A stretch of 64,000 nt of DNA, from the NCBI RefSeq assembly GCF_055900595.2, contig NZ_CM148325.1. One strand, 5' to 3'. Made by a program: the position numbers. Below, one piece after another: positions 1-3,000 of the stretch (position 1 is the first letter of the stretch; every line of letters begins with the position of its first letter).

Positions 1-3000
1 CGTCGCGCGGATAGCCCCCCAGTGCGACCCGGTCAGAATGCCCTCTTTCGAGGTGACAGCCTCAGTCGCCGCTTGCGCCGCTGTCGCACGGCGCGGCGTT
101 AACAGTGACGGTCCCAGCATCCCGGCGACAGTTAAGCCGCCGAGTTGTGCCAGAAAACGTCGACGTGATGCCTGAAAGAGATCGTTATTGTTCATTATTT
201 TTCTTCCTTCTTATCGCCGTGAGCCTTACCTGCGGTGTCAGACGCATTCATTTGGAGATATTTCAACAAGGTGCGTTCTTCACGTTTATCGAGGCTGGTA
301 AAGCCAATCATGCCGTTGAGCGTGCCGATCCAACCGTTAGCGTCAAAGTGAGAGATTTCCGGTGCGCCGTGGCATTGATTACAGGTGCCGTTGTACAGCG
401 AATCCGCATAAGCCCAGATCGGTTTGATATCGTTCACCATGTCGCCTTTCTTCATCCACGCGGTGGCCTGCAATTTGCTCCACTCGGTATTGGTATCGGC
501 AACGGTGGTTTTCTCCAGCGTTTTCACCTGCTGCTGAACATCGCCACGAATCGAGGCAACAAAGATGCGTTTGCCAGGGAACTGGGTGAGTACACGCTGA
601 CGTCCTGCGCTTTCCGTCCAGCCAGTGATTTCAATTTGCAGCCAGTCGCCGTCACGTTTAAGGACTTTCACTTCCGAAGCAGGCAGCAGAGAACCAGAGG
701 CTTCTTTATCGCCTTTCGCCGCATAAATTGGCTTAATATCAATGGAGTACAGCGTATCACCACTATCATTTGCACTGGCGCGCAGCTCATCGAACTGCTT
801 ACGGAAGCCGCTACTCATATCCGGCAACTGGTGGGCAATACCTTTATGACAGTCGATGCAGGATTGATTATCTTTCGCTGCCACCTTCATCTGACGTGCC
901 GCTTCAGGATGCTGCTTCGCATGATCCATCGCGTCGTAGTTATGGCAGGAGCGGCAGGTTGCCGAGTTGTTTTCTTTCATTCGCGCCCATTCACGCTCGG
1001 CAAGTTCCGCGCGTTTGGCTTCGAATTTCTCAGGTGTATCAATGGAGTGGGCAATAAAGGTCTGGTAGATGTCGTTGCTCGCTTCCAGTTTACGCTTCAC
1101 CATGCCTGGAATATCCGGCGGGATATGGCAGTCATGGCATTCAGCTCGCACGCCGGAGGCGTTCTGGAAATGCACCGACTGTTTATATTCTTCATACACC
1201 GATTGCATACTGTGGCAACTGACACAAAATTCGGTTGTGCTGGTGACTTTGATACCCACGTGAGGTAACACAATCAGCGCAATGCCAATCACAATCCCAA
1301 TAGCGACCAGCGCCAGTACCGACCAACGAGCACTGGGTCGGCGTAACGCGTTCCAGAGTTTCCGCATAATAGCCCCTGTAAAATTATGGTTTAGTGAAGC
1401 GATCTTAATGAGCAAATATGAACAGCGGCACTGGTCAGGATGAACGGCTTACGGCAGAATATGAACAGATATGAACAGAATGAGTAAAACTCTCTGATGC
1501 CACATCACATTGTTATTGTTGAAGATGAGCCGGTTACCCAGGCGCGATTACAAACCTACTTCACTCAGGAGGGGTATACCGTTTCCGTTACGGCGAGCGG
1601 TGCCGGGCTGCGTGAAATTATGCAAAACCAGCCAGTGGATTTAATTCTGCTGGATATCAATTTGCCCGATGAAAATGGCCTGATGTTAACCCGCGCCCTG
1701 CGGGAACGTTCGACGGTGGGTATTATTCTGGTTACCGGACGCAGCGATCGGATTGACCGTATTGTTGGGCTGGAAATGGGCGCAGACGATTACGTCACCA
1801 AACCGCTGGAACTGCGCGAACTGGTGGTACGGGTGAAAAATCTGCTCTGGCGAATCGACCTCGCGCGACAAGCTCAACCGCTCACTCAGGACAACTGCTA
1901 TCGCTTTGCCGGTTATTGCCTGAATGTGTCGCGCCATACGCTGGAGCTTGATGGCGAACCGATTAAACTAACCCGCGCAGAGTATGAAATGTTGGTGGCA
2001 TTTGTGACCAATCCGGGCGAAATTCTCAGCCGTGAACGTCTGCTGCGTATGCTTTCTGCGCGCCGGGTGGAAAATCCCGACCTGCGCACCGTCGATGTGT
2101 TAATTCGTCGTTTACGTCATAAACTCAGCGCGGATTTACTGGTGACACAACATGGCGAAGGTTATTTCTTAGCCGCTGATGTGTGCTGATAAAAATAGAC
2201 CGAACGAAATCCCCCTGGTGACAGCGAGCGGCGGATATGTTCGCGATCGGCATTTTTCGGCGTCAGGACTAAAATCGGTGGGCTGACATTATCAGACACC
2301 GATTGTCCCTGTAATTGCCTGATCGCTTGCTCAACCGCCAGTTCCCCCTGCCAGACCATTTGATCGCTGGCAGCCATAATCACTCTTCCCCGCTTTAGTC
2401 CGCGATACACCTGATGTGAAAGATAAAATGACACCACGGTCAGCGGCGTTTTCAGGTTGCGCCCTTCACCCATTGCCGCCTCTGCCGCAATCGCCGTTCC
2501 GGCCACAACGTCGATTTCTGGATGGCGCTCCAACATCTCCTGCAACAGGTTACGCTGGATTTCAATATCGTTGTCGCCGAGCGCAATATCGACAATACGC
2601 ACCGGGCTTCCGGCAATGGCGGCGCGGAAACCCTCTACCATCTCCTTACTGCCCCCGGCGTTATCGGGGCCGGGCATCAACAGCACGTTCAGTGGTTTTC
2701 CGTGACTCCATTGCACCAGATATCGCCCTGGTTGATAGCCCATCTGAAACCACGGCACACCAACGCGGCTTTTCACCTGGGGAGCATCAATAGCATTTAC
2801 CAGTTCGATCACCGGCAGACTTGCTACCTGCTTTTGCAGGTCGGGAAATGACGTCGTGCTACTTCCGAGCAAAATGGCCTCTGCCCCCCACTGTTTGCAC
2901 TGGTCGATTTGTGCTTGCTGGGTAGCCAACTGGCTGTAGCCGCCTGCCTCCAGCACTTTTAAATCCACACCGTAGCGGCGAGCAGCCTCCTGCATACCAT

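What the first reader, a model, noticed from the sequence alone, without database searches (positions are those of the whole stretch)
2162..2189. Convergent 3' overlap of torR and torT (28 bp)
The torR stop codon (2187-2189) lies inside the last codons of the opposite-strand torT (stop at 2162-2164). The regulator and periplasmic sensor partner genes of the same signalling system therefore share their 3' ends with no room for separate terminators.
Basis: seen in the sequence. Interest (0 to 1): 0.2.

Follow-up and report, generated by a model that had tools for sequence, protein, structure and literature searches.

The report
Known torR–torT tail-to-tail gene overlap
The last 28 bases of the E. 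coli genes torR and torT do overlap on opposite strands, but the overlap is already in the reference annotation, looks like a harmless by-product of where stop codons fall, and is one of dozens of its kind in E. coli.

Summary
torR (1497-2189, +, 230 aa) and torT (2162-3190, -, 342 aa) converge and share 2162-2189, which is 28 nt.

The same layout is annotated in E. coli K-12 MG1655 (b0995/b0994). The junction is present in 5413 of 5426 complete E. coli genomes.

The overlap covers only the last 8 codons of TorT, which lie beyond the conserved binding-protein fold. On the torR side it covers the last 8 codons of TorR plus the third base of Gly222.

The torT stop is the complement of torR's Gly-Tyr codons (GGY-TAY of the conserved GEGY motif). 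Wobble positions of the two genes face each other and drift freely.

The 28-nt overlap holds in Escherichia, Citrobacter, Providencia and Enterobacter. A 28- or 31-nt version occurs with TorT proteins 61% and 44% identical. Edwardsiella has a 7-nt gap or a 4-nt overlap, and Serratia has 21 or 54 nt.

No intrinsic terminator or conserved RNA structure sits at the junction. Published data place a Rho-dependent termination region about 432 nt past the torR stop, antisense to torT, and list torT-torR among 165 convergent pairs with overlapping transcripts.

Verdict: real, already known, ordinary. Regulatory antisense coupling is untested.

The parts
1497..2189 (+). torR coding sequence (230 aa response regulator), stop TGA at 2187-2189
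   Evidence: ORF list. NCBIfam NF008034 TorR equivalog at 423.8 bits, cut-off 275, covering residues 1-230. Same length and position as K-12 b0995.
2162..3190 (-). torT coding sequence (342 aa periplasmic TMAO-binding protein), stop TAA as the complement of 2162-2164
   Evidence: ORF list. NCBIfam NF008185 at 489.7 bits, cut-off 200. Same length as K-12 b0994. 119 of 120 closest proteins are 342 aa.
2162..2189 (.). The 28-nt convergent overlap. On the torR side it holds the third base of Gly222, codons Tyr223-Cys230 and the stop. On the torT side it holds the third base of Tyr334, codons Gln335-Lys342 and the stop. Third codon positions of the two genes coincide (2165, 2168, ... 2186).
   Evidence: Read directly from the sequence. 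Per-codon variation table. Cross-species junction alignment.
2160..2165 (+). torR Gly222-Tyr223 codons (GGT TAT) of the conserved GEGY motif. Their complement at 2162-2164 is the torT stop codon.
   Evidence: The same anchoring (GGY-TAY read as TAA or TAG) occurs in all 28-nt-overlap species, and in L023 and L025/L026, whose TorT proteins are 44% and 61% identical.
2187..2198 (+). torR stop cluster TGA-TAA-AAA-TAG, formed by the complement of torT codons Tyr-Phe-Tyr-Gln
2268..2605 (+). C-rich, G-poor stretch of the torR-sense RNA (28-38% C against 17-24% G), antisense to torT. Candidate Rho loading region.
   Evidence: Composition in 78-nt windows, offsets +79 to +416 after the torR stop.
2621..2621 (+). 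Position equivalent to MG1655 1056830 (- strand), a published Rho termination region antisense to torT (Rho score 4.34, p = 2.2e-5), 432 nt past the torR stop
   Evidence: PMC7815308 Supplementary file 2. Coordinates transferred through the collinear torT genes.
1416..1478 (-). tor boxes (CTGTTCATAT, exact copies at 1416-1425, 1459-1468 and 1469-1478) in the torR-torC intergenic region. The published torR transcription start maps to about 1467.
   Evidence: Pattern search. SMRT-Cappable-seq start site at 1057984 for monocistronic b0995 (PMC6131387).
195..1367 (-). torC (context: first gene of torCAD, divergent from torR)
   Evidence: ORF list. Annotation of K-12 and the closest E. coli genome.
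3273..6017 (+). torS (context: sensor kinase, divergent from torT)
   Evidence: ORF list. Annotation. The start was inferred from the 914-aa length in K-12.

Best explanation
This is a genuine, evolutionarily old but functionally incidental tail-to-tail overlap of two real genes.

torT has no stop codon of its own before it meets the 3' end of torR. Its frame therefore runs antisense through torR's last eight codons. It stops at the first stop available, which is the complement of the Gly-Tyr codons (GGY-TAY) of TorR's conserved C-terminal GEGY motif.

The overlapped part of TorT (Gln335-Lys342) is a tail beyond the conserved periplasmic-binding fold. Its sequence is simply the antisense image of TorR's ...YFLAADVC. 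The two frames are phased so that wobble faces wobble, so both genes keep drifting synonymously and the overlap costs almost nothing.

There is no shared or bidirectional intrinsic terminator. After the ribosome leaves at each stop, RNA polymerase continues into the partner gene. torR-sense transcripts are ended by Rho a few hundred nucleotides inside torT. The same is inferred, but not shown, for torT-sense transcripts inside torR.

Shown here: the coordinates, the conservation, the stop anchoring, the tail lying outside the fold, and the lack of a terminator. Shown in published data: the Rho-sensitive region and the overlapping transcription. Inferred: near-neutrality, and Rho termination of torT transcripts.
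For: Coordinates and ORFs are. The K-12 and closest-strain annotations are identical.

- **Tail outside the fold.** Homology to the solved Vibrio TorT structure 3o1h_B ends at query residue 331. The TIGR02955 TorT core model ends at residue 334. In the 50%-representative search nearly all full-length homologues stop aligning at query residues 329-335.
- **Which side is constrained.** TorR's C-terminus GEGY[FL]LAA[DE]V is conserved in most loci, whether or not they overlap. The TorT tail after ...FRPVY varies: YQ[HY]TSAAKK where the overlap is 28 nt, and PAPKAE, PSADVGG and others elsewhere.
- **Stop anchoring.** The torT stop lies on the complement of GGY-TAY in Escherichia, Citrobacter, Providencia and Enterobacter, and in loci with TorT 61% and 44% identical.
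- **Free drift.** Third positions inside the overlap are as variable as in the 40 torR codons upstream.
- **Chance length.** Stop density in that antisense frame is 10 per 230 codons, so an 8-codon run-on is expected by chance.
- **No terminator or known RNA.** No terminator-like site lies near the junction. Fold z-scores run from -1.8 to 0.0. There is no Rfam match.
- **Rho termination.** A Rho termination region lies 432 nt past the torR stop (PMC7815308). It is preceded by a C>G stretch.
- **Literature context.** E. coli has 58 convergent CDS overlaps, and only 20% of those genes have predicted intrinsic terminators. Convergent overlaps fit a stop-codon-mutation origin (PMC2174442).
Against: - The overlap, and the exact stop position on the Gly-Tyr codons, persist down to 44% TorT identity. 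That could reflect selection for the arrangement rather than inertia.
- The third base of the torR Gly222 codon is only C or T in all 14 sequences with the 28-nt overlap, while the neighbouring Gly220 codon uses all four bases. This hints at selection to keep the torT stop, but it is partly circular because those sequences were grouped by overlap length.
- The Rho-sensitive signal rests on low read counts (39 and 14 untreated, 52 and 81 with bicyclomycin). Its RNA could start at an antisense promoter inside torT, such as the promoter-like site at 2247-2275, rather than at the torR promoter.
- No 3' end has been mapped for either gene (no torR or torT entry in the Term-seq tables).
- Nothing is known about termination of torT transcripts.
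Confidence: 0.8

Rival explanations
1. The overlap works as a regulatory device, a convergent 'excludon'. Transcription of torR into torT, and of torT into torR, produces complementary RNAs and polymerase collisions. These reciprocally lower expression and so couple the levels of TorR and TorT, and through them TorS signalling and torCAD noise.
For: - torT-torR is listed among 165 convergent excludons of MG1655, with overlapping transcription in at least 50% of 58 RNA-seq sets (PMC12288877).
- torR-sense RNA extends at least about 430 nt antisense into torT before Rho-dependent termination (PMC7815308).
- The arrangement is conserved across genera.
- An analogous E. coli pair, mscL-arfA, is regulated by 3' antisense overlap and RNase III (PMC10070815).
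- torCAD output is known to be sensitive to the TorT:TorS ratio (PMC6814406).
Against: - Any pair of overlapping coding sequences is scored as overlapping transcription by definition, so the excludon listing adds little.
- Both genes are expressed at very low levels (PMC6814406; read counts), so collisions and duplex formation should be rare.
- Related species manage with a 7-nt gap, with two genes inserted between torT and torR, or with torR elsewhere.
- No experiment has tested reciprocity.
Confidence: 0.12
2. The overlap is an annotation or sequencing artefact, and one of the two genes really ends upstream of its annotated stop.
For: None found. One 352-aa TorT variant with a different tail exists on a short assembled contig (P0081).
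Against: - Both stops sit at identical positions in K-12 and the closest strain.
- The junction is conserved in 5413 of 5426 complete genomes.
- 119 of 120 closest TorT proteins are 342 aa.
- The full-length NCBIfam TorT model (346 positions) aligns to residues 1-339, and the TorR model aligns to 1-230.
- The frame up to each stop is conserved in four genera.
Confidence: 0.02
3. A non-canonical intrinsic terminator hidden in the coding sequence ends torR transcripts. The candidate is the long-range pairing of UGCUGAU (2184-2190) with AUCGGCA (2245-2251), followed by U5 at 2252-2256.
For: The minimum-free-energy fold of 2150-2290 pairs these segments and is followed by UUUUU. The GCATTTTTCGG element is conserved in Escherichia and Citrobacter. 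About 20% of E. coli genes in convergent overlaps do carry predicted intrinsic terminators inside the partner gene (PMC2174442).
Against: - The fold is not significantly more stable than shuffles (z = -1.83, and -0.10 for the shorter segment).
- The enclosed loop is about 55 nt, unlike canonical terminators, and the consensus scan did not call it.
- Conservation of GCATTTTTCGG is explained by torT codons (Pro-Lys-Asn-Ala).
- No Term-seq 3' end is reported there.
- Readthrough increases with bicyclomycin further downstream.
Confidence: 0.05

Closest known systems
E. coli K-12 MG1655 torT (b0994) / torR (b0995) as annotated in RefSeq NC_000913.3
   Same: Same genes, same orientation, same 28-nt overlap (torT 1056261-1057289 +, torR 1057262-1057954 -), and the same protein lengths of 342 and 230 aa.
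   Different: About 3% nucleotide divergence. There is one TorT difference just outside the overlap: Ser330 here against Pro in K-12. Nothing differs in the overlap itself.
Generic convergent (tail-to-tail) coding-sequence overlaps of prokaryotes, attributed to stop-codon loss and run-on (Lillo & Krakauer 2007, PMC2174442)
   Same: A short 3'-3' overlap in which one gene reads into the other until a stop appears. It is one of about 58 such pairs in E. coli, most without intrinsic terminators.
   Different: Its phase (codon positions 123 opposite 213, wobble facing wobble) is the least common among convergent overlaps of 5 nt or more, at 18%, although it is the phase of the abundant 4-nt overlaps. 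It is conserved unusually widely, down to 44% TorT identity.
Convergent excludons and 3' antisense crosstalk, for example E. coli mscL-arfA (PMC10070815) and the ExcludonFinder catalogue (PMC12288877)
   Same: Convergent neighbours whose transcripts overlap at their 3' ends. torT-torR is itself in the catalogue.
   Different: For mscL-arfA, reciprocal regulation and RNase III processing were shown experimentally. For torT-torR no regulatory consequence has been tested. Here the coding sequences themselves overlap, not only the untranslated regions.
Rho-dependent suppression of antisense and readthrough transcription in E. coli (Adams et al. 2021, PMC7815308)
   Same: A bicyclomycin-sensitive termination region lies antisense to a gene and downstream of a convergent neighbour. 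About 51.5% of Rho termination regions in that study are antisense to genes.
   Different: Nothing distinctive. It is a weakly expressed example with a Rho score of 4.34 on low counts.

Membership tests
TorR response regulator (NCBIfam NF008034 equivalog) | Full-length match above the curated cut-off | tested here: met
   423.8 bits against a cut-off of 275; residues 1-230 on profile positions 1-231 of 231. The receiver domain is nearly identical to the solved E. coli TorR structure 1zgz.
TorR response regulator (NCBIfam NF008034 equivalog) | Divergent from torCAD, with tor-box repeats in the intergenic region | tested here: met
   torC lies at 195-1367 (-). Three exact CTGTTCATAT boxes lie at 1416-1478. 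The annotation agrees.
TorT periplasmic TMAO-binding protein (NF008185 / TIGR02955 equivalogs) | Match above the curated cut-offs; periplasmic-binding-protein fold; divergent from torS | tested here: met
   489.7 bits (cut-off 200) and 433.1 bits (cut-off 310). Homology to solved TorT 3o1h_B at E = 5e-69. torS is adjacent and divergent.
Convergent overlapping protein-coding gene pair | Both reading frames are genuine genes, and each stop lies inside the other's coding sequence | tested here: met
   Both frames are conserved up to their stops in Escherichia, Citrobacter, Providencia and Enterobacter.
Excludon (convergent pair with regulatory antisense overlap) | Transcripts of the two genes overlap | not testable with these tools
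   Taken from the literature only: ExcludonFinder Table 1 lists torT-torR (PMC12288877), and there is a Rho-sensitive antisense signal in torT (PMC7815308).
Excludon (convergent pair with regulatory antisense overlap) | Reciprocal or mutually exclusive expression, or RNase III processing of the duplex | not testable with these tools
   No data found. This needs promoter perturbation and rnc-mutant experiments.
Bidirectional intrinsic terminator between convergent genes | G+C-rich hairpin flanked by an A-tract and a U-tract at the junction | tested here: not met
   No terminator-like site within about 240 nt of the overlap; the only hit in 1300-3400 is at 2431-2449 (-), against 2.2 expected by chance. 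Folds of both strands are not significant.
Rho-dependent terminator downstream of torR | Untranslated C-rich, G-poor RNA downstream of the stop | tested here: met
   C exceeds G in every 78-nt window from +79 to +416 after the stop (28-38% C, 17-24% G).
Rho-dependent terminator downstream of torR | Readthrough increases when Rho is inhibited | not testable with these tools
   Published only: Rho score 4.34, p = 2.2e-5 at MG1655 1056830 (-) (PMC7815308 Supplementary file 2).

The most novel reading that the evidence does not exclude
The conserved 3' overlap could be a selected coupling device. torR read-through transcription, which TorR itself represses at the tor boxes, would act as an antisense brake on torT. 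TorR autoregulation would then feed into the TorT:TorS ratio, which sets the cell-to-cell noise in torCAD expression. Anchoring of the torT stop on TorR's invariant Gly-Tyr codons would keep this arrangement stable across genera.
Probability: 0.1. Interest if true: 0.4.

Novelty: already known. Interest (0 to 1): 0.08.

Why it matters
It matters little. The overlap is part of the standard annotation of a well-studied E. coli locus and is one of roughly 58 convergent overlaps in that genome.

It has practical relevance for genetic engineering. Any deletion, tag or reporter fusion at the 3' end of torT or torR alters the other gene. Consistent with this, published torT-lacZ operon fusions were built in a torR deletion background (PMC6814406).

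It is also a clean textbook case of how a convergent overlap is tolerated. It involves a dispensable tail, a wobble-to-wobble phase, and Rho termination inside the partner gene. If antisense coupling between torR and torT were shown, it would add a small layer to the regulation of TMAO-respiration bet-hedging.

Tried and rejected
1. **Frameshift or annotation artefact.** Rejected on the K-12 annotation, the population-wide conservation and the full-length family models.
2. **Intrinsic or bidirectional terminator at the junction.** Not found by the consensus scan or by folding. A long-range pairing followed by U5 at about 2252-2256 was considered and judged unconvincing.
3. **Known RNA family in 1300-3400.** None at E up to 1.
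4. **Extra nucleotide-level constraint in the overlap.** Not seen. Third positions vary as in the flanks.
5. **Mapped 3' ends.** No torR or torT entries in the Term-seq tables of PMC7815308. No termination sites in 1056700-1057299 in the SMRT-Cappable-seq supplements. Supplements of PMC6061677, PMC9023263 and PMC12288877 are not held.
6. **Original descriptions.** Jourlin 1996 (PMC177790), Simon 1994 (PMC196761) and Carey 2018 (PMC6349375) are not held, so I could not check whether they mention the overlap.
7. **Wasted searches.** The first literature search was lost to word-start matching. The 90%-cluster protein search returned only near-identical E. coli TorT proteins and gave no taxonomic breadth. 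The 50%-representative search filled that gap.
8. **Salmonella.** Not recovered by the pattern-based genome scan and remains unchecked.
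Full report
**1. The observation**

The window begins with the E. 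coli tor locus. The genes are:
- torC, 195-1367 (-)
- torR, 1497-2189 (+), 230 aa
- torT, 2162-3190 (-), 342 aa
- torS, about 3273-6017 (+)

These come from the sequence and ORF list. The torR stop TGA is at 2187-2189. The torT stop TAA is the complement of 2162-2164.

On the torR side the overlap holds the third base of Gly222, codons Tyr223 to Cys230, and the stop. On the torT side it holds the third base of Tyr334, codons Gln335 to Lys342, and the stop.

**2. It is real, and it is already annotated**

- RefSeq for E. coli K-12 MG1655 annotates torT at 1056261-1057289 (+) and torR at 1057262-1057954 (-). That is the same 28-nt overlap. The closest complete genome has the same layout.
- The 1.9-kb region is present in 5412 of 5426 complete E. 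coli genomes.
- The 111-nt junction is present at 95% identity or more in 5413 genomes.
- TorR matches the NCBIfam TorR equivalog at 423.8 bits (cut-off 275) over residues 1-230. TorT matches the TorT equivalog at 489.7 bits (cut-off 200).
- Of the 120 closest TorT proteins in a 5.8-billion-protein collection, 119 are 342 aa, and 118 of them end in ...HTSAAKK (one has ...HISAAKK).

No frameshift or mis-called stop is involved.

**3. Anatomy of the overlap**

The torT stop is formed by the complement of torR codons GGT-TAT. These encode the Gly-Tyr of the GEGY motif, which ends the winged-helix domain of OmpR-family regulators. The homology of TorR to solved family members runs to about Phe224.

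The torR stop is followed in frame by TAA, and then by TAG one codon later (2187-2198). These are the complement of torT's Tyr-Phe-Tyr-Gln codons.

The phase places torR codon positions 1, 2, 3 opposite torT positions 2, 1, 3, so the wobble bases coincide. Across 14 sequences with the 28-nt overlap, these shared third positions vary as freely as those of the 40 torR codons upstream. Ala226, for example, uses all four bases, and each choice is synonymous in torT too.

The overlap therefore adds almost no constraint, and no nucleotide-level element such as an RNA structure is being conserved there.

**4. Which gene is the passenger**

The conserved TorT core ends just before the overlap:
- Homology to the solved Vibrio TorT structure 3o1h_B ends at residue 331.
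- The TIGR02955 TorT model ends at residue 334.
- In a search of 1.84 billion 50%-identity representatives, full-length homologues almost always stop aligning at query residues 329-335.

TorR's C-terminus (GEGY[FL]LAA[DE]V) is conserved in most loci examined, whether or not they overlap. The TorT tail is conserved only as the mirror image of TorR where the overlap is 28 nt (YQ[HY]TSAAKK). Elsewhere it differs...YQPAPKAE in Edwardsiella and ...LLPSADVGG in Serratia.

A single substitution at 2185 changes TorR Cys230 to Tyr and TorT His336 to Tyr together in Citrobacter and Providencia. The TorT tail is a run-on product, not a selected peptide.

The torT frame has 10 stops in the 230 codons antisense to torR. 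An 8-codon run-on is what chance would give.

**5. Conservation of the arrangement**

I examined 18 species-level genomes:

| Lineage | torT-torR junction |
|---|---|
| Escherichia coli, E. albertii, E. whittamii | 28-nt overlap |
| Citrobacter (four loci) | 28-nt overlap |
| Providencia (three species) | 28-nt overlap |
| Enterobacter ludwigii | 28-nt overlap |
| Edwardsiella piscicida, E. ictaluri, E. anguillarum | 7-nt gap |
| Edwardsiella hoshinae | 4-nt overlap |
| Serratia (two loci) | 21-nt and 54-nt overlaps, in another phase |

More distant TorT representatives give a similar picture:
- A 61%-identical TorT again has a 28-nt overlap (L025 and L026).
- A 44%-identical TorT has a 31-nt overlap (L023). 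In both cases the torT stop lies on the complement of torR's GGT-TAY.
- In other lineages two genes lie between torT and torR (L024), or torR is not adjacent (L022, L027).

The convergent torT-torR junction is therefore old and often overlapping, but it is dispensable. Salmonella was not recovered by the scan and remains unchecked.

**6. Termination**

A consensus scan finds no terminator-like site near the junction. The only hit in 1300-3400 is at 2431-2449 on the minus strand, against 2.2 expected by chance. Folding either strand around the junction gives energies no better than shuffled controls, with z from -1.83 to -0.02. No Rfam family matches.

Published data help in three ways:
- **Adams et al. 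2021** (PMC7815308, Supplementary file 2) list a Rho termination region at MG1655 coordinate 1056830 on the minus strand, classed as antisense to torT. The Rho score is 4.34 and p = 2.2e-5. Read counts upstream and downstream were 39 and 14 untreated, and 52 and 81 with bicyclomycin. That position is 432 nt beyond the torR stop, equivalent to window position about 2621. In the window, the torR-sense RNA between +79 and +416 is C-rich and G-poor (28-38% C, 17-24% G), as expected of a Rho loading region.
- **The same study's Term-seq tables** contain no 3' end for torR or torT.
- **SMRT-Cappable-seq** records torR as a monocistronic unit starting at 1057984, equivalent to window position about 1467 among the tor boxes. 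It lists no termination site in the region.

For torT transcripts there are no data. Rho termination inside torR is inferred.

**7. Comparison with what is known**

Convergent coding-sequence overlaps are a described class. Lillo and Krakauer (PMC2174442) counted 58 in E. coli. They found predicted intrinsic terminators for only 23 of the 116 genes involved. They also showed that the phase frequencies fit an origin by stop-codon mutation and run-on. The torR-torT phase (123:213) is the least frequent among convergent overlaps of 5 nt or more, at 18%, but it is the phase of the common 4-nt overlaps.

ExcludonFinder (PMC12288877) already lists torT-torR among 165 convergent pairs with overlapping transcription in MG1655. 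A functionally proven E. coli analogue of 3' antisense crosstalk is mscL-arfA (PMC10070815). No such test exists for torT-torR.

In the Goulian laboratory's strains, the torT-lacZ operon fusions are in a torR deletion background (PMC6814406). This is what one would expect given the overlap, though the paper does not state the reason.

**8. Verdict**

The feature is already known and ordinary.

The best explanation (confidence about 0.8) is a near-neutral run-on overlap. torT's non-essential tail reads through the antisense of torR's last codons and stops on the complement of the conserved Gly-Tyr codons. Transcription of at least torR ends by Rho inside the partner gene.

The main rival (about 0.12) is that the overlap couples torR and torT expression through antisense RNA or polymerase collision. 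The available evidence neither requires nor excludes this. Uncoupling the two genes with a duplicated 28 bp and an inserted terminator would decide it.

Noticed in passing
window 1416-1478 (- strand): Three exact tor boxes (CTGTTCATAT) lie at 1416-1425, 1459-1468 and 1469-1478, with a degenerate copy between them, in the torR-torC intergenic region. The published torR transcription start (MG1655 1057984) maps to about 1467, on the boxes, as expected for TorR autoregulation.
   Followed up: partly
window 2187-2198 (+): torR ends in a stop cluster TGA-TAA-AAA-TAG. The extra in-frame stops are the complement of torT's Tyr-Phe-Tyr codons.
   Followed up: yes
window 2201-2203 (torT codon 330): TorT has Ser330 (TCG) here and in E. 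coli Z0117EC0005. K-12, all other species examined and the 119 standard-tail proteins among the 120 closest have Pro in the conserved FRPVY motif just before the overlap.
   Followed up: no
protein P0081 (E. coli TorT variant from a 2.3-kb Logan contig): This 352-aa TorT has a tail that diverges after ...HTSAA into NHHATGGKNSPW. It could be an insertion, an engineered junction or an assembly artefact at the torT-torR overlap.
   Followed up: no
window 60872-60881 (-): A fourth exact copy of the tor-box 10-mer lies far from the tor locus, apparently inside the pepN coding region. About 0.1 exact copies are expected by chance in the window. It is probably coincidental.
   Followed up: partly
window 1400-3300: Only 12 of 5419 matching E. 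coli records are 99% identical or more to this stretch, and most are 95-99% identical. The window comes from a sparsely sampled E. coli lineage. The best matches are strain Z0117EC0005 and a few human isolates.
   Followed up: no
loci L010, L012, L013 (Providencia) compared with L014-L020 (Edwardsiella, Serratia): Providencia TorT is 71-72% identical to the E. coli protein and has the same tail and 28-nt overlap as Citrobacter. Serratia and Edwardsiella TorT are 59-66% identical with different junctions. This suggests horizontal transfer of the tor regulatory cluster.
   Followed up: no
window 2247-2275 (+): A promoter-like site (TCGGCA, 17-nt spacer, TAAAAT) lies inside torT on the torR-sense strand. 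It is within chance expectation, but it is a possible alternative origin for the Rho-terminated antisense RNA seen in published data.
   Followed up: no
loci L024, L022, L027: In more distant lineages torS-torT stay divergent neighbours, but torR is either separated from torT by an acetyltransferase gene and a small ORF (L024) or is not adjacent at all (L022, L027).
   Followed up: partly
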